A stretch of 63,241 nucleotides of DNA, counting the filler, from Kipferlia bialata (Eukaryota), in the NCBI GenBank assembly GCA_003568945.1. It is 7 parts of 7 records of this genome, joined end to end, with 100 filler letters (N's around TTAATTAATTAA, not from the genome) between each part and the next. Parts side by side here need not be neighbours in the genome. Positions count along the whole stretch, not along the records: positions 32,242 to 42,879 come from BDIP01001388.1; 6 more parts are not named here. The stretch is one strand, 5' to 3'. The notes under the pieces were generated by a model, which saw only the letters and a list, made by a program, of their open reading frames with translations, searched no databases and was not told the origin of the DNA. Below, piece by piece: positions 3,001-50,394 of this stretch. The position numbers were made by a program, and so were the translations under genes. Position 1 is the stretch's first letter; every line of letters begins with the position of its first letter.

Positions 3001-6000
3001 GCTGGTAACACACATATATATATATTCCATTGAATACATATACATATATATATGTATACTTATACATGTGTATATACATTAATATGTATATACATATGTA
3101 TATAATATACACACACATATTTATATATATACATAGATTATATCACCTCTCTGGGGCAGCTGCTGCTGGTAGCAGTATCTCTTTGTGGTTGTGTAGTCAC
3201 TGACATCTGTGAAGTAGACAGAGTCGTCATAGAAGGGGCCGGAGGACTCACCCCATACATCCTACAAGTGAGTACACAGCGGGTATCTTACACACACACA
3301 CACACATAGAGAGAGAGAGAGAGAGAGAGGATGTGGTCATAGAAGGGACCGGAGGACTCACCCCACACATCCTACCAGTTAGTACATATTTCAATACATT
3401 ATATAGTTATACATATATATATGTATATGAGTGTATATTCAGAGAGTATATACATACATAATGGTAACCACACATGTGAGTGTATATAGAGTACACATAC
3501 ATACTGGATACCTTTGGAAGTAGCACTGTGAGTGTGGTGTAACTCTCAACCAGGGTGAGTGGGGGGAAGACAACACCCACGGCCCAGACTGGGGTGAGAC
3601 ACATATACCATAGAGACACGTCAACCTATAAACATATATAAGCACATATACTATACATTAGGATAGCATAGAGTACATACTATCTATATACCTAGAGGCC
3701 TTGGTAGGATAGAAGGGTCCCACACCCCTCCCTCCTGGAACATCTGCTGGAAGGCATACTGTAATACAGCTGGAGTGAGTGGAAGGATCAGTATACACAC
3801 TGTGTATATCTATATACTTATATGTATGTATGACTGGACCATCTGTTGGTAGGTATACCGAAACACAGATAGAGTGAGCCGATATGCGTACGTATGTAAC
3901 TCCACTGCATATGGAGCTAGAGGTAAAGTGTCACAACAAGTACAACAAGTACAATAGAGGAGGATATACAAAGAGAGTCATGACTAAGTAATTATGGAAG
4001 ACACCTGAGAGTATGCCAATGCCCACTGCCCATGACACAGCTCGTACTCTACATATATATATACTAATATATATATATATAAATATACTATATACAAACA
4101 GTGCCTCTAGTAATGTACCTGACAAGATGCCTATGCCCACTGCCCATGACACTGCCCTGGACAGAGTGTGGCACAGGGCACTCAGGATGATGGCAAAAGC
4201 ACAGTACGAAGAGGCCTAGGGTCAGTGATATTGAGTAACATCAGTATAATATGAGTAGAAGAGAGAGAGAGAGAGAGAGAGAATAAGAGAGAGAGAGAAT
4301 AAGAGAGAGAGAGAGAGAGAATAAGAGAGAGAGAGGCAGATGATGATGATGATGATGGCAAAGGCACAGTACGAGAGGCCTAGGGTTAGAAGAGAGAGGG
4401 TGGGATAGAGAGAGACGGGATGATGTGCCTGAAGCCCGAACATAATAAGCAGCACATCCACTGGCCTTTCACCCTCTCTCTCTCCCCCGTTCTCTCTATG
4501 TATGTGGGCAGCGTATCAATAGTATCTGCAACTGCGTGGTTATGAGAGCCAAAGCGATCAATAGTAACTGCAACTGATTGTACATGTCAGCCAAACTGGC
4601 TGATGAGCCATCATTCTCTCTCTCTGTGTATATACAATGTATTTCGTATCAATATGGTGTATATACTGATACCTGTAACCCGTAGAGACTGATGAACATA
4701 TCATCTAGCACCACTATATATACTACATACCATATACCATACACAATACACTATATACTATGACATATGTACCTGCAATCCAAACAGACTGATGAGCACA
4801 CCCAGTGACAGATATATATACTACATACCATATACAATATACTCTATACTATATACTATGCCATATATACCTGTAACCCGTACAGACTGATGAGCACACC
4901 CACTGACTGGCACCACTATATATATATACTCCATACCATATACCACATACAATATACTATATACTATGTTATACTGATACCTGTAAACCGTAGAGACTGA
5001 TGAGCACACCCAGTGACAGGTTGATGTCGGGGGTGATGCCAAGGAGGTATCTGATAGTTAGAGAGGGGGAAGCATAATGTAGAATATGGATATATATATA
5101 GTATATATGTAATGTATGTATTATACTATATACAGTATATGCTGATGTCGGGGTGATGCCAAGGAGGTATCTAAGAGTGAGACATAGGTTAGAAGGTATA
5201 CATATACTATATATACTATATATGCAATACTATATATACACTGAAGATATACAGGTTGATGTCCGGGGTGATGCCAAGGAGATATCTGGTAGTTAGAGAG
5301 GCATATTGTAGAGAGTCTACACTGTAAGTATGGGGGTGATGCCAAGGAGAGAGCTAGACGGTAAGACAGAGGTGAGTAGGTATCAATGCAGTAGACATCT
5401 GACTAGGCACATATATACTACATTGTTGTGGCAGTGTATATATATACATATATATATAGTATACAGTAGTATATACTCACCCAGATACAACCATCAGAGC
5501 TGTTGACACCAGACACAGTGGCAGTGTGACCAGCCACCAACCAATGTAGTGCTCCCACTCCTTGAGGCCTGGGAAGTGAGAGAGTATATATATAATGTCC
5601 TATACACTTCCTTGAGGCCTCGGAGAGAAGTGCGGATGTACGGAAGGAGAACAGAACTAATACACAGTATATCTAATACATGGCTAGATACTCGACACAT
5701 ATATATACCTAGAGCTCTCATGCTAACCAGTCTGAGGCCACGTATATATACTAAAGGTATTACATAATTAACTATATGCACTACATATTTGTATATATAC
5801 CTAGGGCTCTCATGCTAACCAGCCTGCCCCTCTCCGCTGAGGCCATATATATACTAGAGGTATTGCATAGTATATTATATTCACTTAATATGTGTANNNN
5901 NNNNNNNNNNNNNNNNNNNNNNNNNNNNNNNNNNNNNNNNNNNNNNNNNNNNNNNNNNNNNNNNNNNNNNNNNNNNNNNNNNNNNNNNNNNNNNNNNNNN

Positions 6001-16751: not shown

Positions 16752-19700
16752 ATGAATCCCCACCTGACCATCTCGTAGTCTGCTATGACCTCATCCACTG
16801 GGGACAGGCCATCGATGAAGGCCTGGGTCTGGATGGCAGAGGCATACCTAGGGTGAGAGAGACGTGTAAACATGTACTACATCTGCTCACACTAATCCCA
16901 TGTTCCTCCAGCATGACCTAGTGAACAGTATTTACCTACAATACCTACATGCCACACATGTATATGTGAATACCACTCACCTAGATCTGATGTCCTCCTC
17001 CAGACACTTGACGTATGAGGCCACCCTGCTCTGCATGCCTAGGCATCAGGGAGAGAGAGGGGGGAGGGACAGAGAGAGAGGGGGGGAGAGAGACGAATGA
17101 CACAAGCAACTTCGATATCTGACATCTGTTTACCTCTCAAGTGTGCCAACTCTGCCTCCTCCACCTCAGCTGCCAGCTCCCTCCCCTCCCCCTCTGCCAC
17201 TGCACACTTGGTCAGGTAGGCACGGCGCTCAGAGAGGTAGGCGTCCCTGATAGTAAGTATTCTACACTCCACCTAAAAGAAGAGGTTGGTGCAACATGGT
17301 GTTGGAATTAATGATATAAAGGTAGGTAGGTACGGCGCTCAGAGAGGTAGGCGTCCCTGTCAGTGAGAACTGCACATTGTACTCGAGTAATGACGTAGAC
17401 TTGCTACAGTGGGATATCTTAGTGGTATACACATACCTTGCCTTTGTGTGCACTATACTCGAATTAATACGTAATCTTGCTAAGGTGTTGATACTTAGTG
17501 GTATATATATACCTAGCCTTAGTGTAGACTGCAGTCAGCTTCTCCAGAGTGCGTGTGTGTCTGGAGTGGTCGGCACTGGCAGGGGCACCTGGGCCTGGGG
17601 GGTCAGAAGAGATACACACACGAAAGATATACAGGTATCAATCACTGATGAACAAATGAGAAATTGGAATTAGAAGCAAACTAGATCAGACACTGCAGCT
17701 ATCGGCGATAGATCTATAATATCTATAACACACCTAGCTCTGCGATGGTGTCCCCACATGCCACCATCTCAGCCTCGGCAGACTGGGCCTGGGATATGAG
17801 AGTCATACTGCACATTATGATAATAATACACTACAAGCAATCCTTTACACAATGACATGAATACAATTATACCACTGAGTGTAACTAGACAGTTGACGCA
17901 GATATTGATATAGTGCATTGGGTGATACCTTGCCCAGCAGCATTGCCAGCCTCTGTGACCTCTGGGCATGCTTCCTCACAAGTCGGTCGGCCTGGGTGTA
18001 AGGACATAAAACTCGTATCTAACTTATGGAAAGGGTATCAGCTGATACAATTTCCAAGTCTAACAATTATATGTTGAGGTCGGGAGTGCTTTGTACCTTC
18101 TTGGACAGACTGGTACATGCAATAATTATACAATATTATATTGCATAGTCTACATATATATATATATACACAGACGGGGAGTTCTACCTTCTTGGACAGA
18201 CTGGTGCATGCGGCAGTGGCAGAGTCAGCGTCCTAGGGTGAGACATATCAGAAAGTACACATGCAAAGTATATGAGAGAGTAATTCACCAACCTTCTCCC
18301 ACTCTGCTGCCAGTGTGTGCATGCTCCTCCCCTGGTCTGCTGCCACCCTGCCCCTGCCCTCCACCTCAGAGGCGATGCTGTGCCACGTCTTCAGACATAT
18401 TCCCTAGGGTTAAGGTTATCTGTGTATCCATACATATATATATATATGGTATTTGTACTTATCAGAGGCGATGCTGTGTCACGTCTTGAGGCAGATGCCC
18501 TGGGGTCACGGATATATATCTGTATGTATATGCAGTGTATTCACACATCACGTATATATATGCACATTCACATTGGAGGCTATGGTGTGCCACGTCTTGA
18601 GGCAGATGCCCTGGGGTTAAGGGTATCTGTGTATCCATACATATATATATGGTATTTGTACTTATCAGACGCTATGCTGTGCCATGTCTTGAGGCAGATG
18701 CCCTGGGAGTGAGTAAGCATCATTTGGTATACTCATATTGTATATTTGTATATACTATATATGTGTATGCACCAGAGGCTATGCTGTGCCACGTCTTGAG
18801 GCAGATGCCCTAGCAGTTAAGGCTAGGTAACTATACAGAGAACATAGTAAATATCGAAGGGGCTGAAATAGTATGTACCACACCAGCCAGCCAAGAGACC
18901 AATCTACACACACCGCATACCTTCAGTGCTGGCATAGGGGGGCACTCCTTCCTCCCGTTGGCAAAGGCAGTGCCTGGGAGGTCAGGGACTAGCAACTACT
19001 CACATATATTTGACGCAATCAGCATTGAAACAATTTACGTTATAGCAGGTGAATCATGTAAATAAGGTTGCTGAATGTCAGGCAACTTGCACTTGCTGCG
19101 TAAATAGATATACCGTCTTTACCTGCCCCTGCTGCCGCCGTTGCATGTGCCTGTATGGTGTGTGCCATGGATGTCATCTCAGACACACGCTGCTTGTAGA
19201 GGGTACGGACAGAGTCAACACTCCCAATGCCTAGGGTGAGAGAATACATGTAGGTATATATGAATGCAGGTGAATAGGTATTAAGATACACATTTAGTAG
19301 ATGAAATATCCCTGTACCTGGGTCTGCGAGCTGTCTGATACAACATTCTATAACTAGATAAGATATATTTACTAGACACATATTTATCTATCATATATAC
19401 ACTATATATACATATCCCTGTACCTGTGTCTGCCAAGTGTCTGATGCCGTGTTTGGCCATGAGGTCAGGGTACATGGTCACAGTGCCATCCGCCTGGGGG
19501 AAGATACTAATTAGTAAATAGAATAATCCACTTAGAATTCCTCTTTGCATGTAATATATATCCTTTGTGTACCTGTATGATACTGGGAAGACAGGACAGA
19601 AAAGACACGTTCTGCCTGACTAGACACGATGGGTCACACGATCCCCTGTCACCCCTACCCCCCTGGGTGGCAGATGCCATGTCACTAGCCACGGAGTGGG

Positions 19701-23166: not shown

Positions 23167-24380
23167 TTCTGTGTAGACATACGATTATCCCATTTGTGTA
23201 TTGTATATTAGGTGTTATATTTACTTACCCTCAGGGTCCAGTCCCACATGACCCCCTCCCTACTGGGTGGTGACACACCCTCAGTCCTGAGACTGCTCTT
23301 CAACGATGTGCAAGTGGTCAAGGTACTCCTGAACTCTTTATGACTGTTTATATGTATATATATTGGAGAAATATGTTTCTGACTGTATGTGCAAGTGGTC
23401 AAGGTAATGGATTAACCTGATTATTATCCACTTGTCTTGGTATTCTATCTCTTATATTTATTTATATATATCCCTCTTCAACGATGTGCAAGTGGTCAAG
23501 GAAATGGATTAACCTGATTATTATCCACTTGTCTTGGTTTTCTTTATCCCTATATGTATTTTTATATATCCCTCTTCAACGATGTGCACGTGGTCAAGGT
23601 ATAGTTGTCCTTATGAATGTGTATACAGTTATATGGATTCATATGGTCAGTGACATGTTTCTCTTATTCATTTGTTCCCTTATGAAAGGAACACTTCCTT
23701 GCCCGTGCCCAAGCCATGTCCGACTGGATAGTACTCATCTTTGGAGCATTCTACATGGCCAGGGTCACTGGCCTGCTCAGCACAAGTCTCTGCATAGGTA
23801 AATACAATACTGATTGTACATATGATTGCTATACACACATATATATATTAATGTACTACTAGTATTTGGGGCATTCTACATGGCCAGGGTCACTGGGTTG
23901 TTGAGTACTAGTATATGCATAGGTATTCACTATTGATTCTCATTATATATGATACTGATGATACTTATACAATCTTCACGTACCTTCCTTTCTAACCCCA
24001 TGTCTGAGTGCACTCCTCCTATCTGTCAACCAGTTGCTGCACCGGTACGGGAAGAGACAGGTATATACTCATTCCCTGGAGTTCTTTACTATTCATTTTC
24101 CTGCTTTAGGTCTATATGTAATCACTTTATCAGCCCTCAGGGCTACTTCTCCATCAAATGTCTTCTATACTACACTATATTGATATGAGTAATATCTAAC
24201 CCCAGCGCTTCATGAAGGGCAAGGCAGAGAAGGCCAGGCAGAGCCTGTTCTCAGAGTCGGTGGAGTCACTCCAGAGTATTAGGTGTGTACAATGAATGGG
24301 TCTCGTATATATTAGTCTATATATATGTATACTTCTCCATACTCATGATACAGATTCTGGAGGATTTACTACCTGTATGA

Positions 24381-27400: not shown

Positions 27401-30400
27401 GTTTGTAACATATGCATTCCGCATTAGTGTTCATTACTATCACTTGTCTTACCCCCAGACCCCATCGACCGCACCACCATCCAGCTGGCCCATACTCTCC
27501 TATATATATATATATATATATCGTATATACATATATACATATATATGTATGTATAATAATGTATGTATATATAGCGTGTCTCATACTCAGACCCCATCGA
27601 TCGCACCACCATCCAGCTGGCCCGTACCCTCTGCCACCGGCCTGACCTAGTGATAGTCAAGGCAGGGGACGGGTTCTCAAGGGAGATCCTTAAAAGGCTC
27701 CAGGTATAGCTAGAAGTATATATGTCCCAAGCTAGTATATAGTCAAGGCAGGGGACGGGTTCAGCAGGGAGATACTAAAGAGATTGCAGGTACATATAAC
27801 AATTGCCTATATAAATACTTACTGTATATATTCATGCAGTACAGAAGTATTAGGTATACCTAGTGATAGTCAAGGCAGGGACGGGTTCAGTAGGGAGTTC
27901 AGGCTCATAACTGTTGTTACTTACTCAATACTAATTAGTTGTTCTGTCTGTTCATCTATTAGTGGAAATATTGGATTGCTATTCTAATGACAGGCCGGCC
28001 ATTCCATTGGCCTAGTGATTGTTAACAATAGTTCTAGTTTTCATATTTTCTTGTTCTTATATCAAGGCCGGCCATTCCATTGGACTTGTGATTGTGGGCA
28101 CCAAGGCTGAGATTGAGGCTGAGCTCAAGGAGACTGGGGGTACTGATGCGTCAGACTCTTCTTACACTGGGGGTACTGGGGGAGAGGGAGAGAGAGAGTG
28201 GCGCTTCCTGGACTTCATGGAGTCCAGGGTCAGGCTGCCCCTGTCGCTCTCACTCGCTAGGTTAGTGTTTTACATCTTTACACTATATATAGGCTAGGTG
28301 GGTACTGTGGTACCATTAATTCTTCTTATCTAACATTTCATTCAGTTGCAAGGTGTATGTCCATGTGTTTTCCTACTTGTGTATCATTCATATCTTCCTC
28401 ATCCCAGGAAGTCCTCCATGTCTGTGCTCAGACTGTAATACTCTTTCCCANNNNNNNNNNNNNNNNNNNNNNNNNNNNNNNNNNNNNNNNNNNNNNNNNN
28501 NNNNNNNNNNNNNNNNNNNNNNNNNNNNNNNNNNNNNNNNNNNNNNNNNTATATTATGTGTCTATCCTCATCCCAGGAAGTCCTCCATGTCTGTGCTCAG
28601 ACTGGCACCCGTGTCCATGGAGCCAGAGTACAAGGTATACAATATACTTCTTTATATAGTATTGGTATTTATATAGTATATATAATGGATATTCATGTGT
28701 ATCCTTATATATATATTCGTATCGGTGTCCATGGAGCCAGAGTACAAGGTATAGACATATATATTATTATATATATATATATGTATAGATAAATATATAT
28801 AAATACATAAATGCAATGGTCTGGTGCCCGTGTCCATGGAGCCAGAGTACAAGGTACACAGTATGTCATATATTCATACTCTTATATATACTTCTATATA
28901 TGTATGTATATTCATGTGTACTCTACCAATTCTCATCCAGAGTACAAGGTAACATGTGCCTTTACTTCAACATCGTTTGACTATATTGTATACATGGTGT
29001 TTAGTTGTTCTTGATGGACATGGATATGCACTCACCCCAGAGTGTCCTGTCCCTCCACGTCACTGAGGACCCCCCTCTCTACTCCAGACCAACATCCATG
29101 CACTGCCTGACAGGCAGTGTCGAAGGGGGAGATGGTAAGTTATATATATATTAATATTTATACATTTACTGGTAGGAAATATGTATGTCACTAGCTGTGA
29201 GTTTGTGTTCCTATTCTCCAGCTGACTCAGGCCATGAGAGCATCGCCTCCATCCTAGCTAAGCATGAGGAAGCAGAGAGGGAGAGGGAGAGAGAGGTCCA
29301 GAGGGGGGTCATAGCAAGGTATGATTACACTGTCACCACACCTCTCTCTATGTATTGCGTGGTCTCTCCATCTCCTTTTGTCTGTATATATATACACTGT
29401 ATATATATACACTGTGTCTAACCCAGGCGCCGCAAGGGTCTCTATGGTGAGCTGTCTCTGGGTCATGATGATGACCACACAGTGCCAATGAGAGGGTGGG
29501 TGGATATACACATGACTACAAGGCCTAGCACAGTATCCATCACCCTTTGTGAATATCTTGTATGTGACCATATATATCCCCTCACCCCCAGGTACCGTGG
29601 TCAGACCAGGGAGGAGAGGCGGAGACAGAAGGAGGAGGCCAGGCGTCTCAAGCAGGTATGTATTCTGTAACACACACAAGCCGTATTGATTCTTAGCAAA
29701 ATTGGAACATATTATTGTCATATGCAATACAGTCTTGCCCTTTTGGTCGTTCAACTGTACCTCTCTATGTCTAACCCCAGCTGGAGTGGGAGAGGAAGGA
29801 CCATGCCAAGAAGGTTGCTGCCGGCCCCTCCTTCTCCTCTGCATTCAACCTCTCCAGCACATTAGAGATAGTGCTCATAGTGGGCATAGTGCTCAGTCTC
29901 GCACTGACTACTGTGGAGGTAAGATATATTAAGACTTGTATACACTTCTTTTGCTCTCTGGAGATAGTGCTCATTGTGGGCATAGTGCTCAGTCTTGCAC
30001 TCACTACTGTGGAGGTATGACTGGTTATGGCTATTATATAATAATTATATAATAGTAATTATTATATTATATATACCTCTCCAGCACCCTGGAGATAGTG
30101 CTCATTGTGGGTATAGTGCTCAGTCTGGCTCTAACAACTGTGGAGGTAAGATATATTAAGAGATGTATACACTTCTTTAGCACCCTAGAGATAGTGCTCA
30201 TTGTTGGTATTGTCTTGAGCCTGGCTCTAACAACTGTGGAGGTATATATGATACTCTATTCCCATATATATAGCACCTTAGAGATAGTGCTCATTGTCGG
30301 CATTGTGCTCAGTCTTGCACTCACTACTGTGGAGGTATGAGTGTTCTTTGTGATATACATATATTATATCCACATTTGCATTGACACCCAGGAAACAGCT

Positions 30401-33035: not shown

Positions 33036-33629
33036 GGTGGATACTCTTCAAAGAAGAAGGATCTCGACTGAGTGCTTGAGTTGGTCAATTTCTTGCTTTT
33101 CATTTTGGAACAGAGTTTTGATTCTGAAATCGCATCAACTTCCAAACATAAATGTCAAATCAAACGACCTTTCATTATATCAAAGAACGCAGCACACATC
33201 TCTTTACTACCAACAAGATACTTTCCTCATTTCAACTGATGTGTAGTATTCATATACTGTCTCGAGGAAGAGAGTCAAATCCATGAGGAGTCAGCACTGT
33301 GATACCACCTACACCCTTTTGTTGAATGAGAATCAAAAAATCGTCCTAAGGGGATAGGGTGCCTCATACAGATTGTCTCGTTAACAAAGAAGAATGGTGT
33401 GGTAGCCAGCCATAGGAGTAGGCACCACAATGGAGCACCCCAATGCAAAAATGGGCACTTGAGGGTGCAGAAAGAGACAATTTGCAAATATTATGTCTCT
33501 CTGTGTGTCTCTCCTTCTGTCTACCTCCATATAGTCTATGTAGGAGTCCGGTTGGCATGCATGGAGAACAAGTGGCAAAGCACTCTCCCTGTCTCCCTCT
33601 CTGTCTCTCTCTCTCTCTCCCTCTCCCCC

Positions 33630-36600
33630 TCAGTCTACATAGTCTAGATAGGACCCAGGCTGGGTTGACAGGGTGTCTCTGCCAAGGGCCCTGATATCAC
33701 ATGGACATGCATGTTATTATATAGGGAATGGTATAATGTATTGAGACAGAGAGAGAGAGCTTAGGCTGGGATGACAGGGTGTCTCTGCCAAGAGCCCTGA
33801 TATTAGTGGATATAGAGATATATATAGAGAGAGGGACAGTACCTCAATAGTGTCATAAGTGACCCATCTGTGTCACACCGGCCTATGAGGGTATTGTCCC
33901 TGACCTTCGGTGAGGCAGTGACGACACATGTTGAACATGAAATCCCACAATTGAATAGATATCCCCTCGCTCTCATGTATACTGTATATGTATATATATG
34001 TATGCTGTGGAAGAGCAGGCACGGGCATAACAATAAATTATTATGTATGTGTATACATAAGTATATACACGCAAGTGCATACACTATACCTCCACCACGG
34101 GTTCCCATCAATATAACACTGTCATACGTATATATAATAGCATACATATATATACTTTGATACATATATATATATATATATATACCCATACTATCACCAC
34201 GGGTTCCTTTCCCTGTGCCCTGTGAGACGCAAGTATGTATATATGTATATATATATATATAGATATACACCATACCTCCACCACTGACTCCCCTCCCTGT
34301 CCCCCTGAGACATGGCCTCTCTCTCGCCTGGGGGGTAAGAGGTATTCACATCAGTATATACAATATAGGCATGTATAATATATACTATATACATGAGTGT
34401 ATATATATATGTAGGAATATGTATATACATGTCCCCCTGAGACATGGCCCCTCTCTCGCCTGAGGTAAGGGGTATATGTATTACTATATACAGTAATATA
34501 GAGTACATCATATGGTATACATATATACGTGTATTACTACATGTGCCCCTGAGACATGGCCTCTCTCTCGCCTGAGGGGTGAGTAGAAGTACTACATGTA
34601 TAGGTATTCTGTAGGTATTCTATATACTAATGTATGCGTACATATATATGTAGGAATATGTATATTCATGTCCCCCTGAGACATGGCCTCTCTCTCGCCT
34701 GAGGGGTGAGTGAATGAATGTATACTAATATGTATTCACAGTATACATTCGCCTGATACGTGAGTATAGGTATACAGTATGTATACTATATACATATATT
34801 AATGAGTACATATATAGGTAGATATATGTATATACCTGTGCACATCTGCGGCTGTGTCCGTGGGTCTCCTCTTGCTGCCTGGGTATAAGGGTAAAGGTAC
34901 TCATAACTGGATCCAAATCATATACAGATACAGAGGAATCTGAGTGTATATACACATACCCGGTGGAAAATTCCCCTATTGCTAACATATATGAATAGAT
35001 AGACATCACTCAAACGTAGTAAATATTTATACATTTACATATATTCCTCACCTGGTGGTACAGTGAGCGAGTCCTGTATCCTACCCCTCTGTGCCAGTCT
35101 AACTACCCTGGTATCAACGTATAGTGAACGGAAGACCGTATATACATCAGGGGGTATATATACCTACTGAGCCGTCTCTCTATCTGTTCCTTGGAGTTGT
35201 TGGGGGGTAGGGACGCTATGCCCCTGTTATCGGAGGGAATGGCACGGCCTGGCCTGACAATAAGGGTGTAGAAGGAGAGAGAGAGAGAGAGATAGAGAGG
35301 TGTGTGGCTCCAGCACTCCAGCATATAGAGAAATACACTTACACTATATTATACACTCACTTGTATACATACATACTCTTATAGTATACGGCATACTCAC
35401 TTAAGAGGTATATATTCCTATACAATATGGATAGATATCTTAATATTTAAGTAAATACGTTACAATAATACATTTCAATACACTACATAGACACAATATA
35501 CATACTTTAGAGCTGCCACTATCCCCTGTATCTCCAGGGGCGTGGGTGCAGCACTCCGGGGCAGATATACATATAGGGTATATACATTTACGAATATACT
35601 ATATATATACAACNNNNNNNNNNNNNNNNNNNNNNNNNNNNNNNNNNNNNNNNNNNNNNNNNNNNNNNNNNNNNNNNNNNNNNNNNNNNNNNNNNNNNNN
35701 NNNNNNNNNNNCAATGCCCTGTATCTCCAGGGGTGTGGGTGCAGCACTCCAGGGCAGATATACATACACTATATATACATATATGCCTATACACTGTATA
35801 TATACTCACTTCAGAGCTGCCACTATGCCCTGTATCTCTAAGGGTGTGGGTGCAGCACTCCAGGGCAGGATGCAGACAGGGAAGCCAGACATCTCTACAC
35901 GCCTCTCGCCTATCGAGTAAGAAGAGTGGTATAGGGATACATTCAACTGGGTATACATGGTAAAATTACATGTATATATACTATACACGTGTATGATGCA
36001 CACGGGGAAGCCAGACATCTCCACACGCCTCTCGCCTATCGAGTAAGAGTAGGAATGCGAATAATGAGTATCGAATATTCATGTATACGTATACATACAT
36101 GAAGTAGATATAAAAGTCAGACATCTCTACATTAGAAAAGACAGAGAAACAGTTATTGATGGGATATCGCCTATCGTGTATGCATTTCTATATCCATATG
36201 TTTGTAGACATATTTACCTTGGAATGTATCCTCTGCCGACCTGCGCTCAGGTGACAGCACCAGTATATGTATACACCACTACCGTGTGCATATAGTGATA
36301 TATATAGTGATATATATAGTAATAGAGTACACACACCTTGGAATGTGTCCTCTGCCGACCTGGGCTCAGGTGACAGCACCAGTATGTGGGGTCTACTGGT
36401 GTGTGTGTCATGAGGGCTATTGAGGGCATCGGACATCTGGGGTGAGGGTATGTACATACAGACAGCACAGAATGTGTACACAATACCCCAATATTCATAA
36501 ATGTGAATGAGAAGTGGTACTTGAATGTGTAGGTATACATATATATACATATATGTATATATAGTATATACCTCCTGCTCCACCACTGACTGCAGCCACA

Positions 36601-37137
36601 GGTCCATGGCCTCTACACCCTTATTAAGGTCATGGCCTGAGTTAGTATAGACATTTTCATCTATATATATGAGAATGTATTAGAAACTGTCATGATACAT
36701 ACTAAAACATGCATATCGTCATGGATTCTACAGTATATATGAAAATAGTATAGTATATATATCATATCCATACCCATAGCAGTCTGCTCCAGCTGTCGTG
36801 GACATGCCCTCATGTGCACTACTAGCTCGGTCTTGCCACTAAAGGGTAAGAAATACTATCAATATACAAGTAGAGAGACACAGAGAGAGAGAGAGAGAGG
36901 GAGGGAGAGAGAGAGGTTCATGTAGCTCAGTCTTGTCACTGGTATAAGTATATTACATCTTACTATTAGTTAATGTCTATAGTATGGAGTGTAACACTAT
37001 ACATGTCTCACATGTGCACAACAGTCTTGCCACTAACGTGTAAGAAGTATGAGGGATGGGTAAAAACGTATATATAACACGTCCTCATGTGCAAAACCGT
37101 TAGAGCTTAGAAACTATATCACGGAATATCAATATAC

Positions 37138-37190
<53 letters not shown>

Positions 37191-37282
37191 CTCATGTGCA
37201 TCACCAGCTCAGTCTTGCCACTAATTGGTAGGGTATACTTCTAAGTATTATAATAGATGAGAGGATATGAAAATAAGGGTGT

Positions 37283-37320
<38 letters not shown>

Positions 37321-37761
37321 ACTGCCCTGATGAAGGTGTATGCCTCTCCAGAGTATTTATATTGTGTACATACATACATACACACTGGTATATATGTATG
37401 TGTATATATATATATACACATACACACCTGCTCTGGTGGAGGTGTCTGCCCCTCCTGAGTTCACACCAGTCAAAGGCTGGGGTCAGACGTCAAGTACAAT
37501 ATATGTATATATACATATATATACAAGTACAATATATACAATGTATATATATATTTATATGTATATATATGTATATGTATATAGTCTCCTGAGTTCACAC
37601 CAGTCAAAGGCTGGGGGTCAGACAACAAGTATTATTATACATATAGTATATATATAGTATATACATACACACACATATATATAGGCATCTGCTGAGTTCA
37701 CACCAGTCAAAGGCTGGGGGTCAGACAACAAGTATTATACAAATATAATTATATATATACA

Positions 37762-37792
<31 letters not shown>

Positions 37793-39156
37793 GGCATCTG
37801 CAGAGTTCACACCAGTGAAAGGCTGAGAGTAAGGGCATTACGGAATACATATTCACTGAAATAACAATACACGCATATGTATATACATATATATAATATA
37901 AACATAATTATATATAGGCATCTGCTGAGTTCAGGCTGGGGGTGAGGTCACTAAGGAGAAGGAACAGAAACAGAGCTTAGTGCATGTATATGGCGAACTA
38001 TCACGACAGAAGGTTAGATCCATAAAGTCACTATAGGCCATACTATGTACATCTCTCTAACAGTAATCCCTACCTCTGCTCCCCTCGTCTGCCGCCTTCC
38101 TTAAGGAGTTCATATATATCCATTTTACATATTCAATGGTATACATATACACATAGCAATGCCAAGTACCTCTGCTCCCCTCGTCTGCCGTTGGGACGTA
38201 CTGGGGCACCCTGAGGTGAATACAGATATATGTGTGTAAGGCAAATTATTATATGTATATATACACGACTATACAATACAGAGTATAGAGTATACTATAT
38301 GTTGGGACGTACTGGGGCACCCTGGGGGTGAGTATGTGTTGATATGTATTCACACACATATATATATATGGCTATATAGTAAATACGACCACGACCAGCA
38401 TAGGCCAGTAAATGTGTATATACATACACCAATCATTTATCCTACAATACCTCAGTACTCCTGATAAGGCAGTGTCGCACCTACATACAGAGCACATGAC
38501 AGGTGGGGTATATGTATATATACATATGATAACCAATGTATATACATACATATATATGAGTATATACTATGCCTAAGTACACCAGAGAGTGCTGCCTCAC
38601 ATCCTCCATACACTGCACATGACAGGTGGGGTATAGTATATGTATCAACGTATAAATAGTATATATGAATATATGAATATATACTATGCCTAAGTACACC
38701 AGAGAGTGCTGCCTCACACCCCCCATACACTGCACATGACAGGTGGGGTATAGTATATGTATCAACGTATATATATACATATAGTATATATACTATACCT
38801 AAGGACTCCTGATAAGGCAGCTTCACACCCCCCATACACAGCACATGACAGGTGGGGAATGGTATACATACTACGTGTATATAGTATATGTATGGTGGGT
38901 TTTACCTGAGGACTCCCGATAGAGCAGCTTCACATCCTCCATACACTGCACATGACAGGTGGGGTATTTGTATATATACATATGACAACCATTGTATATA
39001 TACATACATTAGTAGTATATATGAATATATACTATACCTAAGTACCCCAGACAGTGCAGCTTCACACCCCCCATACACTGCACATGACAGGTGGGGTGGG
39101 TGGGGGGTACCCTGGGGGGCAGACAGAAAGGCCTCTCTAGTGTGAATAAAGGGTGT

Positions 39157-39195
<39 letters not shown>

Positions 39196-40690
39196 GAGGG
39201 GTACCCTAAGGGGCAGACAGAAAGGCCTCCCTAGTGTGAAGAAAGGGTGTAGGGAGAGAGAGAGAGAGAGAGAGAGAGAGCAGGTGGGGGGTACCCTGGG
39301 GGGCAGACAGAAAGGCCTCCCTGGTATTAGAAAAGGGTGTAGGGAGAGAGAGAGAGAGAGAGAGAAGTTGACGGGTACCCTGGGGGGCGGACAGAAAGGC
39401 CTCCCTAGTGTGAATAAAGGGTGTAGGGAGAGAGAGAGAGAGAGAGAGAGAGGGCGGGGGGAGAGAAAACCCCACCATACAGAGGAATGCACATTGGAGA
39501 ACAAGTGCTATAGATATACCTAGCGAATGCGACAGCCGCTGTCAGTACGGTGTCCCTGGCTGGGAACTCTCTCTCCCTATAAGTATATGCACAATATATA
39601 AATGTACATACATGTACTATAGTTATGTATACCTTGCGAATGCAACAGCCGCTGTTAGTACGGTGTCCCTTGCTGGGAACTCTCTCCTGCTACCACCAAA
39701 GTAGACACAGTCCAGTACTAGTGTATTGCATTCAGCCTGAGGGTTAGAAGATGAATACTTATAATAATATATCTGCATACTTATGTATGTATATATATAT
39801 ATGTATACTAATTTGATAACGCCAAAGCAGACACAGTCCAGTACCAGGGTGTTACACTCTGCCTACTGGTTAGAACTCAAATACTACAGTCCAATACCTG
39901 TGTGTGTTATACACACACTCTCTACCATATATATATATATATATATCTATATGACTATAATACTCACCTTGACCACTTTCAGTGCCTCCTGGATGTGTGA
40001 TATGACCTGGGGGTGAGGGTAAGTATGGATCATGTATCTAACTCGTAATAACAAAGATAGTACCACAACAAGCAATACAAATATCATACATTCTAGTAGA
40101 ACACCAACCTGGCTGTCTCCGGCCAGGGATGGTGGCATGATATATGTATCAATGTCCATACCCATATATATGAATGCACGTATATGCATATACGCATGAA
40201 CCCACCTGGCTGTACATACTCATATACACATATATACATATATTAATCTAGGTGCACATACGCATGTACCCACCTGGCTGTCTCCGGCCAGAGAAGGTGG
40301 CAGGTACACACAGGCCTGGATGGTTAGATTGAAGTGTGTAAATGACAATATCACCATAAGTATAATAGTAATAATATATCATGTACACACAGGCCTGGAT
40401 GGTTAGGCTATGAAACACAGAACTGGACAAACACTAAGAGTATTGAGAGAAAGAGCAAATCATATAATATACCTGGTAATTGTGCCCTAATCTACGTGTA
40501 TCTGTCTCTCTCTCCCATAGTACAATCATGGCTGAGGCACCCAATACTACTATGTATATACTAATTATATATAAACATATATGTATGTATAGTACCTGAT
40601 AATTATGCCCCAGCCTCCTAGTGTCTGTCTCCCTCTCCCACAACACAACCATGGCAGAGGCACCAACATAATAAGAATAGTAAACTACTT

Positions 40691-40721
<31 letters not shown>

Positions 40722-41437
40722 TCATGTATACTATATAGTATATAGTACCTGATAGTTATGTCCTAATCTACGTGTGTCACTCTCCCTCTCCCATAATACA
40801 ACCATGGCTGAGGCACCAACAAAGGTGCGCTTGGCAGGTACACAGAGAACCTAAAAGTAAGGGCAGATACATATAATGTATAGAGAGAGAGAGAGAGAGG
40901 CAGAGGTCCGCTTGGCTGGCACACACAGGACCTTGGGGTAAAGAGAAGAGAAAGAGAGAGAAAGAGAGAGAGAGAGAGAGAGTGGTAGAGGCCCCGACGA
41001 CGGTACGCTTGGCAGGAAAGAACACATAAGACCATAAGGTTTGTGTGTATGTATATACAGATTCATATATGTATGAAGAGAGAGAGGGCGAGAAAGAGAG
41101 AGAAAGGTGTGCTTGATAGGGACACAATTCACCTAAACCCGAAACACTACATACACCATAGTCCATAGTATGTAGATATCATAAGTATACCTTGATAGTG
41201 TGTCTGCCCTGTGATATGGCCACTGGTATATAAGGTATTACTATTAAATATACACACTATATACAAGTACATCTAAAGTAATGTACAATACCTTGATTGT
41301 ATGTCTGCTCTGCGATATGGCCACTGGGGTTTATGAGCAGACACACACCANNNNNNNNNNNNNNNNNNNNNNNNNNNNNNNNNNNNNNNNNNNNNNNNNN
41401 NNNNNNNNNNNNNNNNNNNNNNNNNNNNNNNNNNNNN

Positions 41438-41471
<34 letters not shown>

Positions 41472-42060
41472 TCACCTTAATTGTATGTCTGCCCTGGGAT
41501 ATGGCCACTGGGGTGATGGGCTGGTGCAACCTGGGGGGTGAGGGATAGAGGGTATAAACAGGGACAGAGATAGACACGTTCAAACTAGGAGTGACCAAAT
41601 AGAAAAGACATAAAGAATAGCTACATAATTGTTGTGGGCTGATGCTTCCTGGGGTGTGAGATATATATACATTCCAAAAAATGAGATAGAGAGAGAGGTC
41701 ATATTCTAAGACCATATCTACCCAAGATGTTCCTCTTTATAGTGATATTTGGAGTAGAGAGTAATAGAGTAATATAGTGTAAACATATTGTACTGCATGT
41801 TCTATTAATATTGAGTATAACTGAACACTGGGGCAGCCTTGAGGTTCCCGTGTCTAATATATATATACATATTGTATATAGAATATATAGTATATATATA
41901 CATAAGTATGGTAGTATACTGCATACACACTAGGAATTAATGCTATATATAGTAAAAATACTATACCTGAACACTGGGGCAGCCTTGAGGTACCCGTGTC
42001 TCCCACCCATGTACTGCACTGCAAACTCAGGGATGACAACATCTCTTAGAGTTAGTATGA

Positions 42061-42097
<37 letters not shown>

Positions 42098-42149
42098 ATG
42101 TACTGTACTGCGAACTCAGGGATGACAACATCCCTAATGATAAGTAGGA

Positions 42150-42183
<34 letters not shown>

Positions 42184-42627
42184 AGAGAGAGACTATGTAC
42201 TGTACAGCAAACTCAGGTATCACTACATCTCTAGGGTAAGAGGTATTATATAGATTAGGAGGGGGAGAGAGAGAAAGAGAGGGATAATTCTGGGTACTGC
42301 ACAGCAAACTCAGGGATCAATACAACTCTAGAATAAGATATACGGATTTGGAGAAGAGAGTATAATGCTTCACTACATACAAATGTACCATTACATATAT
42401 ACATGTATATACGTATATACATATATATATACCTGTTAATATCCAGGTTTGGGCATGCCCTCTTGACCAGGGCGGCATCAGAGTACAGTACAAAGGCAGC
42501 ACCCTCCTCAGTCTGACAATAAGGGTGTAGAGGGAGAGGGAGGGAGAGACAGTGAGAGAGAGAGAGATAGAGAGAGATGGGTACAGAACAAAGGCAGCAC
42601 CCTCCTCAGTCTGACAATAAGGGTGTA

Positions 42628-42663
<36 letters not shown>

Positions 42664-42868
42664 CTCTGTGTCAAAGTCCATGTCCATCATGGAGTCTGTG
42701 GTACAGTGATAGAGTATAGAGTATAAATGATGCACTTTTTACTCATATATTTAGTATATAATAATAATACACTTGTATGTATATAATTGTGTATCAATAC
42801 CTCTGTGTCAAAGTCCACGTCCATCATGGAGTCTGTGGCATGGGAGCCAAGGGGGGCAGAGGGGATCT
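33630..42868 (-). CDS. SNM1/PSO2/Apollo (DCLRE1)-like metallo-beta-lactamase/beta-CASP protein with degenerate catalytic motifs, 5' partial
   Basis: Spliced exons in the expected order: SHATDS (HxHxDH position), AFVLYSDAALVK, IK|VLCVPAKRTFVGASAMVVLWE (ANHCPG position), NTLVLDCVYFGGSRREFPARDTVLTAAVAFAR (LYLDTTY..FP.Q..V) and VCILPWSAAPTPLEIQGIVAALK|PGRAIP (IPYSEHSS..EL..FV..L.P..IIP). The family call is by motif spacing only. Confidence 0.62.
37427..37940 (-). repeat. Array of 5' fragments of the exon AFDWCELRRGRHLHQS
   Basis: Plus-strand 'gagttcacaccagtcaaaggctgggggtcag' at ~37457, ~37591 and ~37694; variants at ~37803 and ~37927. Confidence 0.88.
38450..39412 (-). repeat. Nine-unit exon-fragment array (3 x 5' fragment, full exon, 5 x 3' fragment) of EAFLSAPQGTPHPPHLSCAVYGGCEAALSGVLR
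   Basis: Full exon ~39037-39138; 5' fragments ~39198, ~39285, ~39373; 3' fragments ~38904, ~38797, ~38689, ~38571, ~38450. Confidence 0.95.
40470..41135 (-). repeat. Exon-fragment array of the exon VLCVPAKRTFVGASAMVVLWERESDTRRLGHNYQ
   Basis: Full exon ~40749-40850; 3' fragments ~40594 and ~40471; 5' fragments ~40900, ~41000 and ~41105. Confidence 0.9.
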
Positions 42869-46516: not shown

Positions 46517-46754
46517 TGTGCTAGTGAGATTGAGTGCCAGTCTCATCCTAGGAATGACCCCTTTCCTATGTACTCACGCCAACTCACCACGATGGTTAGG
46601 TGTTTTAGAGACACCACATGACTTATGCGGTGTTGCCAATAGAACCCCTCTGTTTCACTCCAAGTATCGTTTGACATGTTTGATTGCGCAAGCATCTATT
46701 AACTATATCTTCTCCACCTCTACACACATACTGTACTGCCAAGCGGCTCCTATC

Positions 46755-47128
46755 TTACACGAGCATCTTGGGGAGGCCTCTGAGCTTGATCATGGCAAAC
46801 CTGGGGTTAGCGTACTACTATAAAGACACAGTGTTGAATATCATGATCACACTAGAGGTGTCAACATCTCCCACACTGACAACTACATACTAATATGTGG
46901 AATACTGTACTGTACCTAATGGACTCGTAACCAGGTGACCTCTTGAAGGAGAACTGGGTGCACAGCTCATTGACACGCCTGACAGTAAGACAGATACAAT
47001 ATTGAATAGCTCTGGAAGACCAACGTCAGCTGCAACATATGTATGTGCAATGTTCCCACCTGTTGTCCCTGTTGGACAGTGCCGTGGCATAGTCATTCAG
47101 GAAGTCGAGGGCATCCTGGGGTGAGGAG

Positions 47129-47170
<42 letters not shown>

Positions 47171-48897
47171 AGATACCTGGGGGATGGCGCCTGAGTCCAG
47201 GTGGGTCATGAGGTCTCCGAGGGCCTTGGCGGTGTTGACGAAGAGGGGGGAGGCGCCTCTAGAGGGTGAGAAGGGGATAACATTGGTATAAATAATCATA
47301 TTCATAGTGTAAAAGATACCTTGGTCCCCTAGAGATGTGGTCACATGCATCGATGATGGTGGCCCTGACCCTCACAGCCACTGGCTCGGTGGAGGAGAAG
47401 GGCACGCCCTGCAGTCAGAAGAGGTGACAGAGACACATGGGTATACTACTATGACTGTATATATATCTAACCACAACACTCACATTGAGTGCCTCTATTG
47501 GAGATAGATACATACATGTATACATGTCAAACTATACATACATATACACACACATATATATATATATACTCACCTTGAGGGCCTCTATTGGGGACAGACT
47601 CTCATCATACGCTGGCTTGGGAGGGGGTGCCTTGACCACAGGGGCAGGGGCAGCCCTAGGGGCGTTGTTGAGGGGAGAGGGGCCTCCACTCAGAGGGGCC
47701 ACAGCTGGGGTGTACACACTCACCTGGCATAAGACCCCTCGGTCTGGTATATATATATGTATGACTATGTACTAATCATCGTACCTTAGGAGGTGGGGGC
47801 ACTCCGCTGCCATTGCTCCCTGCCATTGATATGCCGCTGGTCATGGGGGTCATGCCCTGGGTGGGCTGCAGGGGCTGCATGGCTCCCATGGCTAAGGTGA
47901 GAGAGGCGAGGGAAGAGAGTATGTGGACATATATATATATATATATACACAACATCTAGTACCTGCCCCGAGTGGGGGTGCCATGTTCATACTGAACACC
48001 TCAGGGGTGGGGGCAGGGGCAGCCTGGGCAGGCTGGGGCTTGGTGTTGTACATGTCCCTCTGGGGCTGGGGTGGCTGGACCGTGGCCTGGGGGGGAGGGG
48101 GGGCCTGACCGTAGGCAGACGTCATAGGGGGAGGGGCAGCAACGGTCTGGGGAGGGGGAGGTGCATGCACCTGGGGCTGTGTCTGTGTCTGGGGCATGGC
48201 AGGAGGTGCCATGGTGAGGGGGGCGGGGGAGAACACAGTCATGCCAGCTGGGACCATGGCTGGGGGGTCAGGTTGGCATCATATATGTATATGTATATAT
48301 AGTCCTTGCCCTATACTCCTACCTGGTCCAGTGCTGGTGCCCATGGGCTGCTGGGCAGGGGCCTCACGCCTCATCTGAGAGGGGGGAGGGGGGACCTGGC
48401 GGTGAGGTGTGAGGTGACGCATATTTAATAACACACTCTATACATGCACTCACCTGTGGGGGTGCCATGGTCATGGGGGGTGGCATGTAGCGAGAGGGCT
48501 GCATCACGTTGGGCTGAGGGGTGAGAGAGGACAAAGAACGAATAATTTTGATACATGTATTGTGAACAACACATACTCATAGATACCTGGCTTGGCTGCA
48601 TGGGTGTGGTGTGTGTGGATGCGCGCACTGGCTGTGTGTGGTAGCCACCCTGGGGCTGCCTCTGCACCTGGGGCTGGGCCATAGGCTGGGGGGCAGCCTT
48701 GGTCTGGCAGTGAGAGGGAGAGAGAGGAAAAAAAAGGGACAGTAAGGTACCGGTATATATATATATATATATGTGTGTGTGTATACCTGGGGCAGTGGGG
48801 ATGGTGCCTTGGTCTTGGGGATGGCTATGCCCCCCTGGGTCCAGTACCACTCGGCAAGGTCCTGCTCGCCCTGGGTTAGATATATAAATATATACAT

Positions 48898-48928
<31 letters not shown>

Positions 48929-50347
48929 CATATATAGAGAGAGTGTGTGAGGGAGAGGGAGGAAGTACCCAACACCAACCTGGCTGGCGAGGATGTCTCC
49001 GTATCCCCTGAGCAGCTCCTGGGCAGGGCCCTCCCTGGACAGGGTGTGTCTGGAGAGGACAGCCAGGGAGGTGACCAGCAGGGCAACGGTGTCAGTCATG
49101 GCCTGGGGTGAGTAGACATATATATAAACAGTAGGCGATGGGATATGCGCCATGATATATATGCGTACCTGGAGGCCTGTGGACTTTGTCTGGCTGTTCC
49201 AGAGGGTGACGGCAGAGTCGAGGTCTCCGATGATGAGGGCACACAGAATGAGGCCTGGGGGTAGGGAAGGAGACACACTCAGCACATACACTATATATAC
49301 ATATGTACTATAGCACCCACCTCTGGAGTACAGCCTGTCCTGTGTCTGTGTGTATGCCTTCTGCAGTCTCTCCATCACAGCCCTGACGTGTCCATCGAAG
49401 GAGGCCTCGTCACTGTAGGAGCAAACCGCAGCTAGCAGCTGGGTCCAGCCTGATAGATAAGATAAATACTCTAATCGAGAGAGAGATAGAGGACAGGGGG
49501 AGAGGAAGCAGGTGACCTAGCGCTACCTGCGATGGGGCTCTGTGCGAGGTATGTCTCGAGGGTGTCAGCACCCACGGAGCATACTAGAGAGAGGGCGGCG
49601 TGGTCGCCGGGCCTCTCCTCCTTCAGAGATGCCACATACAGGGTCCTGACGGCCTTGTAGGCAGCCTCGGAGTGGGAGGCAGAGAGCACGAGGGCAGTGG
49701 CATACTCGCCAGCATCCAGGCACTGCTGCACAGCGAGGGGGATGTTGCCACAGAGAACGGCAGTGCCTGGGGGTTAGGGTATAGGTGGAAGAGTGTATAG
49801 TACGTGTATATACATGTGATGCTTCGTACCGAGCTGTGATACTGGGGTAGGCTCGTCCATCTGCACTGTCTCCAGCACAGCATGCACAGCAGGGGAGGGG
49901 GTGGGGGTGGGCAGGTCGGGGGAGGGGGCACGCTCAGGCTCCTGGGGGGTTAGGAGGGAGATAGGTATATTGGATAGAAGCAGCACCACCCCACCTCCTC
50001 GACTGGCACCTCCTCCTCATCGAAGAACCCAGCACCGTCATCCTCTGGAGTCAGAGGGAGAGAGAGAGAGATAGAAAGAGAGAGAGAGAGGAGATATGTA
50101 CTCACCCATTCCCATGTCTCCCATGTCCATTCCCATGTTGTCAAAGGCAGCTCCGTCACTGAGCTCCTCCTCCTCCTCCACCTGTCTCTCCCTCTCTGCC
50201 ATACCCCCTGTGGGTCTGACTGGGGACTTGGCCTCAGCCTCAATCTCTACCTCCTCCTCCTCTGCCTCTGGCTCCTGTCCGTCCCTCATGAAGGCGAAGG
50301 AGGACACGTCCTGGTCCTAGGGGTGAGAGGCAGGTATGCACATACAC

Positions 50348-50394
<47 letters not shown>

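What the first reader, a model, noticed from the sequence alone, without database searches (positions are those of the whole stretch)
38450..39412. Clearest array: four acceptor-less 3' fragments with zero amino-acid changes, and a decayed distal copy
The full exon ends CCC CAC CTG TCA TGT GCA GTG TAT GGG GGG TGT GAA GCT GCA CTG TCT GGG GTA CTT AG|gt. The fragment at ~38904 reads ..TAT GGA GGA TGT GAA GCT GCT CTA TCG GGA GTC CTC AG|gt: 8 codons differ, all synonymous. The one at ~38797 reads ..GCT GTG TAT GGG GGG TGT GAA GCT GCC TTA TCA GGA GTC CTT AG|gt: 6 codons differ, all synonymous. The fragments at ~38689 and ~38571 are also purely synonymous but end in GC rather than GT. None has an AG immediately upstream. 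Only the most distal copy (~38450) has missense changes and a 1-nt deletion, suggesting an age or selection gradient away from the active exon.
Basis: seen in the sequence. Interest (0 to 1): 0.85.

Follow-up and report, generated by a model that had tools for sequence, protein, structure and literature searches.

The report
Introns that archive former exon versions
In the flagellate Kipferlia bialata this exon, like most of its neighbours, is flanked by tandem half-copies that the one transcript seen leaves out, yet they differ from it almost only at silent codon positions, so they are likely leftovers of once-working alleles dropped into the introns by misaligned recombination.

Summary
Confirmed and much wider than reported. 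The array lies on the minus strand of Kipferlia bialata gene KIPB_005768. Five 3' half-copies follow the exon (39136-39038). All 24 changed codons in 3' copies 1-4 are silent. By hand I annotated 128 half-copies at 58 exons of six genes: 4-fold sites differ 0.29, 0-fold sites 0.046. This rejects both neutral decay and the 'only the live exon is selected' null (silent 0.67 against 0.39). Changes private to copies are also silent-enriched. One RNA contig splices only full exons. A DNA contig joins the exon, the spacer and the start of copy 1, at a depth like the exon's own, which argues against stacked alleles. Silent changes show no AT drift and no positional gradient; replacements are private, AT-biased and weakly more distal. 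Best reading (0.5): young fossils of deeply diverged working alleles, fed in by misaligned, mismatch-tolerant recombination. It needs silent diversity near 0.25-0.3, above the ~0.20 record. The scan earlier noted dead exon-junction copies in sea urchin; the one-sided explanation given there fails here.

The parts
39038..39136 (-). Live exon (99 nt, phase 2 to phase 2) of KIPB_005768. It carries an in-frame 9-nt repeat at the point where 5' halves end and 3' halves begin. The public gene model omits it.
   Evidence: (RNA contig, 0 differences)
38906..38964 (-). 3' half-copy 1: 8 silent codon changes, GT donor, no acceptor
   Evidence: joined to the exon on a DNA contig
38799..38857 (-). 3' half-copy 2: 6 silent codon changes (7 nt), GT donor
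38690..38748 (-). 3' half-copy 3: 4 silent changes, GC donor
38573..38631 (-). 3' half-copy 4: 6 silent changes, GC donor; recent twin of copy 3 but shares two variants with copy 1 (mosaic)
38451..38508 (-). 3' half-copy 5: decayed, 4 replacements and a 1-nt deletion, GT donor
39191..39230 (-). 5' half-copy 1: acceptor, no donor; carries a stop codon; runs into a (CT)n tract
39281..39320 (-). 5' half-copy 2: acceptor, no donor; ends in the P-H-L codons with which the 3' halves begin
39365..39404 (-). 5' half-copy 3: acceptor, no donor; decayed at its free end
39633..39736 (-). Upstream full exon used in the RNA contig; has its own 5' half (start 39862) and 3' half (end 39520). The public model took the 3' half for an exon.
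38170..38210 (-). Downstream full exon used in the RNA contig; has its own 5' half (38321) and 3' half (38074) that abut with a 1-nt overlap
33525..42866 (-). Host gene KIPB_005768; 15 of my 20 exons have at least one half-copy. Protein is a weak SNM1/Artemis-like lead only.
29781..30334 (+). Second large array (KIPB_005766): exon plus four 3' halves, up to 13 silent and 0 replacement codon differences
18293..18809 (-). Array of four 5' halves before a full exon (SH3-ending gene)
4673..5353 (-). Array with three 5' and three 3' halves that meet with an overlap of about 4-5 nt

Best explanation
The half-copies are left out of the one spliced transcript seen and are likely young fossils of exon halves that worked in other, deeply diverged alleles, likely placed in tandem by misaligned recombination with a homologous chromosome. 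Shown: each unit is a half-exon with one splice site plus a piece of intron, median 107 nt. 5' halves lie only upstream and 3' halves only downstream of the one complete exon. Their free ends fall into (TA)n or (CT)n, and the transcript uses the complete exons. Inferred step 1: roughly 100-nt tandem duplications or patched breaks, joined by microhomology at microsatellite edges (Pol-theta-type end joining), seed the arrays. Only one-splice-site halves survive, because splicing pairs acceptor and donor across the complete exon. Inferred step 2: in crosses or fusions, a homolog's working exon pairs out of register with a half-copy. Dmc1-only, mismatch-tolerant strand exchange lets this happen, and it brings in a half that was under protein selection until then. 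This gives silent-only, mosaic, star-like differences with unalignable intron flanks. Inferred step 3: once displaced, a half decays neutrally (about 3-5%, AT-biased) until it is overwritten or deleted.
For: 0-fold sites differ 0.046 (113/2476) and 4-fold sites 0.286 (195/682), alike in the five genes with several copies. One-sided selection predicts silent 0.39; observed 316/471 = 0.67, and 100/141 for one copy per exon side in independently backed exons without the focal one. Changes private to non-distal copies are 29 of 42 silent against 0.24 neutral. Two clocks: silent changes are direction-neutral (68 GC>AT, 77 AT>GC), replacements are AT-biased (53 against 26, P 0.003). Replacements are private (29 private, 1 shared), and pS and pN are uncorrelated (rho -0.06, n 52). 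10 of 128 copies have lost AG/GT, in line with the 0-fold decay. Silent distance does not grow with rank (46 against 48). Four-gamete conflicts: 6 of 10 site pairs here, 7 of 15 in the 29781 array. Only 30 of 195 copy pairs have a recognisable intron flank. 3' halves differ less near the break and more near the donor (0.21 against 0.41), as crossing over inside a copy predicts. The RNA contig uses full exons only. Spacing is not biased to multiples of 3 (48/38/42). K. bialata is listed with PolQ, four Dmc1 entries, Spo11 and Msh2 and without Ku70 (PMC8516963 Suppl. Data 2); Fornicata lack Rad51A. Dmc1 residues help repair from templates 20% or more diverged (PMC6719624 section 17).
Against: It needs silent diversity of about 0.25-0.3 among recombining lineages; the highest in the paper I read is about 0.20 (PMC8270832 passages). 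No second allele or strain was seen: no other letters in the DNA contigs, one protein per cluster, no metagenome relative. Sex has not been observed in Metamonada (PMC8516963). In a few blocks the intron flank is nearly identical (2-3 of 34) while half the silent sites differ, which needs extra exon-limited conversion. The near-break gradient is not significant with one copy per exon side (P 0.19). Exons and copies were picked by hand from similarity.
Confidence: 0.5

Rival explanations
1. The halves are kept as in-cis repair templates. Breaks in an exon are patched from the neighbouring halves often enough that harmful amino-acid changes in them are purged, while silent changes pile up.
For: 5' and 3' halves tile the exon around one point (gap within 5 nt in 8 of 25 exons, 3.8 expected, P 0.024). 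The live exon has a 9-nt in-frame repeat at that point. Copies are mosaic. No Ku70 in the species.
Against: By my own arithmetic (inference), conversion slow enough to leave 0.3 silent divergence gives too weak a selection unless diversity is already extreme. Copies carry private stops, AT-biased replacements and broken splice sites.
Confidence: 0.15
2. The copies are snapshots of one lineage, and the live exon changes at silent sites several times faster than intronic copies decay (exon-focused error-prone repair filtered by selection).
For: Changes private to the live exon are 19 of 21 silent. In some blocks silent sites differ more than the adjacent intron (0.24 against 0.14). One array shows additive steps 4, 5, 6 over three copies.
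Against: It needs a live-to-dead rate ratio of about 5. It predicts more silent distance in distal copies, not seen (46 against 48) although 4-fold sites are below saturation. Most intron flanks are unalignable, so introns are not slow.
Confidence: 0.12
3. The halves are still expressed, through non-canonical joining of a 5' and a 3' half, a minor or stage-specific isoform, or programmed DNA deletion between the shared ends.
For: Amino acids and 118 of 128 AG/GT ends are kept. 5' and 3' halves share a 9-nt end here. The public model uses a 3' half as an exon.
Against: The only RNA contig laid joins full exons 8-9-10, and no RNA contig lay on copy 1. Free ends show no splice consensus. Spacing is not frame-biased. 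Contigs drop rare forms, so absence is not shown.
Confidence: 0.1
4. The assembler stacked alleles or strains of a mixed culture in tandem.
For: Short-read draft assembly with microsatellite-rich introns (PMC5874029 passages). No laid contig spans the whole array, and 38795-38926 had no cover.
Against: A separately built DNA contig (38938-39091, 0 differences) runs from inside the exon through the 73-nt spacer into 27 nt of copy 1. Its depth (436) matches the contig crossing the middle of the exon (433) and a copy-3-type contig (468). The run holds 0.94 of sampled words. Mid-exon junctions cannot be allelic forms. The run may be the assembly's own source, and depth is no copy number.
Confidence: 0.04
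5. Ordinary dead tandem duplicates, with the silent bias coming only from selection on the live exon.
For: The copies are dead in the RNA contig and decay. An earlier scan note (e1-9861148) explained sea-urchin copies this way.
Against: Predicted silent share 0.39-0.45 against 0.64-1.00 observed, P 1e-17 for one copy per exon side. Changes private to copies are silent-enriched.
Confidence: 0.03

Closest known systems
Internal tandem duplication of exon-intron junctions leaving dead partial exons (scan notes e1-9861148, e1-9980835; human F7 intron 7 repeat as named in that note, not read)
   Same: Head-to-tail units made of part of an exon, one splice site and a piece of intron; only the complete exon is spliced.
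   Different: Here it affects most exons of several genes, on both sides of the exon. The silent bias far exceeds one-sided selection.
Intron gain by tandem genomic duplication (PMC3443670, passages read)
   Same: Short tandem duplications inside genes that the spliceosome hides.
   Different: No duplicated AGGT becomes a new donor-acceptor pair. Existing introns lengthen; no new intron forms.
Mutually exclusive tandem exons (Dscam type; recalled)
   Same: Tandem exon paralogues under protein-level constraint.
   Different: Copies are halves with a single splice site, encode the same peptide, and were not seen in RNA.
Silent-cassette gene conversion (Borrelia vls, Neisseria pilS, trypanosome VSG pseudogenes; recalled)
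   Same: Partial, unexpressed copies next to one expressed locus, with mosaic sequences.
   Different: Those cassettes diversify amino acids of a few surface genes; these keep amino acids and occur in unrelated genes.
Ciliate MDS pointers and Giardia split introns (recalled; Giardia trans-splicing in the abstract of PMC6679479)
   Same: Gene pieces with short shared ends, or split gene parts; Giardia is a fellow fornicate.
   Different: An intact exon is present and used, and the free ends lack splice signals.

Membership tests
Mutually exclusive tandem exons | Each copy has its own acceptor and donor | tested here: not met
   one splice site per copy
Mutually exclusive tandem exons | Alternative copies appear in mRNA | tested here: inconclusive
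   one RNA contig, full exons only; contigs drop rare forms
Intron gain by tandem genomic duplication | A duplicated exonic AGGT serves as a new donor and acceptor | tested here: not met
   free ends are mostly AT/TA/CT/TC; the RNA uses the old sites
Dead exon-junction duplicates | Tandem unit of partial exon, splice site and intron piece, not spliced in | tested here: met
Dead exon-junction duplicates | Divergence fits selection on the live exon alone (pN/pS about 0.5) | tested here: not met
   pN/pS 0.13-0.21
Silent-cassette gene conversion | Cassettes vary in amino acids | tested here: not met
   1 shared replacement against 29 private
Silent-cassette gene conversion | Directed transfer from cassette to expressed locus | not testable with these tools
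   needs lines or populations
Ciliate-type programmed rearrangement | Short repeated pointers at joining ends | tested here: inconclusive
   9-nt overlap here; small overlaps or gaps elsewhere; gap within 5 nt in 8 of 25
Ciliate-type programmed rearrangement | A rearranged somatic form exists as DNA | tested here: inconclusive
   no joints in DNA contigs over 346 nt, part uncovered
Introner-type mobile introns | Families of near-identical introns at unrelated sites | not tested
   only a shared 10-mer was counted; no genome held

The most novel reading that the evidence does not exclude
Kipferlia runs a genome-wide exon-replacement cycle. Breaks inside exons are patched with a whole exon from a deeply diverged lineage or from the stored halves, using Dmc1-only recombination that tolerates one mismatch per codon. 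Each intron thus keeps a layered, still-recyclable library of synonymous exon versions, and one genome records the diversity of its whole population.
Probability: 0.2. Interest if true: 0.92.

Novelty: new variant of a known kind. Interest (0 to 1): 0.72.

Why it matters
If the best reading holds, a single genome gives evidence for recombination between very diverged lineages in a metamonad, a group where sex has not been observed. It would also give a direct readout of silent diversity at or above the known record. It is a natural test of repair without Ku and Rad51A, and of exon definition in a short-intron protist: the spliceosome ignores up to five spare donors and three spare acceptors around one exon. 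In practice, the halves mislead gene prediction: the public model of this gene drops the real exon and uses a half-copy.

Tried and rejected
No whole genome is held, so no genome-wide count. Reads could be laid only on 38795-39140; 38795-38926 had no cover in either run, which proves nothing. No listed run is on record as RNA; X2 is a guess, but its contig skips both introns. X2's share of words (0.09) matches 31-mers inside full exons (0.085) but is no evidence by itself. Read-through as extended exons rejected: spacing mod 3 is 48/38/42. Splicing at the free ends rejected: no consensus. In-genome paralogues as donors: none found, weak. Metagenome scan with P0002: 47 pattern matches, none confirmed. 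Protein identity: no Pfam hit for 10 exons, P0002 or P0003; PDB search gave one weak hit, E 0.007; the AlphaFold model had pLDDT 37.6, so no fold search was run. My frame for the last exon of the focal gene is probably wrong (absent from P0003); its one copy stayed in the totals and counts against the bias. Earlier findings by place and by sequence: none. Paper searches found no description of these arrays; the library lacks most subscription papers.

Full report
Setting. The window is a string of contigs of about 10.6 kb separated by N spacers. Three of its genes match public Kipferlia bialata proteins: KIPB_005771, KIPB_005766 and KIPB_005768, the host gene. The species paper describes a short-read draft with 124,912 GU-AG introns; 'duplicat' does not occur in its main text, and the passages I read do not mention such arrays (PMC5874029, passages).

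Observation. On the minus strand the exon 39136-39038 is followed by five 3' halves, each with a donor and no acceptor. Copies 1-4 differ in 8, 6, 4 and 6 codons, all silent; copies 3 and 4 end in GC; copy 5 has 4 replacements and a 1-nt deletion. None of 20,000 shuffles reached 24 of 24 silent. Three 5' halves with an acceptor and no donor precede the exon. Two end in intact P-H-L codons and the third in a decayed form; the 3' halves begin with P-H-L. The live exon has an extra in-frame 9 nt at this point.

Is it real and is it used? Reads were laid on 38795-39140 only. An RNA-type contig of 1977 nt matches the exon with no difference. Its loose ends match the full versions of both neighbouring exons, checked by eye. 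No RNA contig lay on the copies. A DNA contig runs from the exon through the spacer into 27 nt of copy 1; that last side is under the tool's 31-letter rule for bridging. Its depth (436) is like that of the contig crossing the exon's middle (433). The stretch 38795-38926 was uncovered in both runs. The two runs are one sample and may be the assembly's source, so this is not independent support. The public model omits this exon and repeats the 3' half of the previous one; the RNA contig contradicts it.

Extent. Self-comparison showed such repeats throughout four contigs, few in the Sec31-like gene and none in 53717-60917. I annotated 63 exons by hand, chosen mostly because they had copies; 58 have copies, 128 in all (69 5', 59 3'). 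In the fully annotated host gene 15 of 20 exons have one. 16 of 17 exons from two other genes and 17 of 20 of the host gene occur letter for letter in public proteins. Units are 68-304 nt, median 107, with no frame bias. Free ends fall mostly at AT/TA/CT/TC. Where both halves exist they meet within 5 nt in 8 of 25 exons (3.8 expected, P 0.024), but long exons leave large gaps.

Selection. pS 0.304, pN 0.049 over all 128 copies; 4-fold 0.286, 0-fold 0.046. An earlier scan note on sea urchin raised the right null: if only the live exon is selected, 0.39 of differences are silent. Observed 0.67 (316 of 471); 100 of 141 using one copy per side of 28 independently backed exons without the focal one. 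Changes private to a copy are silent in 29 of 42 (non-distal) and 19 of 40 (distal) against 0.24 neutral. So the copies' own lineages were under protein selection for most of their divergence.

Two clocks. Silent changes are direction-neutral; replacements lean to AT like the introns (53 against 26). Replacements are private, 29 against 1 shared, and include stops. pS and pN are uncorrelated. Damage is somewhat higher in distal copies (22 against 10, P 0.05; by arrays 10 against 6, P 0.45), while silent distance is not. Copies are mosaics. Only 30 of 195 pairs keep a recognisable intron flank. The reading is old silent divergence made while functional, plus about 3-5% recent decay.

Mechanism. 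Steps shown are anatomy, skipping in one transcript, and the two clocks. Inferred: microhomology-joined duplications of about 100 nt seed arrays, and misaligned exchange with diverged homologs feeds in working halves. K. bialata is listed with PolQ, four Dmc1 entries, Spo11 and Msh2 and no Ku70 (PMC8516963, supplement rows; one scanned supplement was unreadable). Fornicata lack Rad51A (section 8). Dmc1 residues aid repair from diverged templates (PMC6719624, abstract and section 17). Against: the implied diversity exceeds about 0.20, the highest in PMC8270832 (passages). No second allele was seen. Sex is unobserved in Metamonada. Some blocks have near-identical flanks with half their silent sites changed. 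The near-break gradient loses significance with one copy per side. Rivals are cis repair templates (0.15), a fast-evolving live exon (0.12), current use (0.10), artefact (0.04) and ordinary decay (0.03).

Comparison. It is built like dead exon-junction duplicates but fails their divergence test. It fails the defining tests for mutually exclusive exons, intron gain by AGGT duplication (PMC3443670, passages) and amino-acid cassettes. PMC6679479 (passages) covers the species' reduced spliceosome only. Seven searches found no account of these arrays (listings and abstract starts only). The host protein resembles SNM1/Artemis nucleases by language-model features at 0.90 with 162 shared features, a lead only; Pfam, PDB and folding gave nothing.

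Verdict. A real, pervasive and apparently undescribed gene architecture; new variant of a known kind; interest 0.72.

Noticed in passing
window 35262, 37275, 39149-39426, 42521, 42619, 36613, 33309, 15391: One 10-mer occurs 11 times (0.18 expected): after (CT)n tracts in four different introns of the host gene, antisense inside one exon, and in two 3' regions. It may mark copying of intron tails between introns.
   Followed up: partly
window 39038-39136 and 39520-39575: Public model KIPB_005768 skips the real exon and uses the previous exon's 3' half as an exon; the RNA contig disagrees.
   Followed up: yes
window 33525-42866: Host protein scores 0.90 against SNM1/Artemis/Apollo (DRMBL) clusters by language-model features; a possible diverged DNA-repair nuclease, unconfirmed.
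   Followed up: partly
window 46750-53270: The Sec31-like gene has only about two half-copies over many exons, while less conserved genes have many; copy density may track expression or constraint.
   Followed up: no
window 23689-23797: An open exon with its own silent-biased 3' half is missing from public model KIPB_005766.
   Followed up: partly
window 40473-40596: Both 3' halves share Thr where the live exon has Ser, the only shared replacement found; it may record a former allele.
   Followed up: partly
window 53717-60917: This contig shows no such repeats in the self-comparison and has few microsatellites, unlike its neighbours.
   Followed up: no
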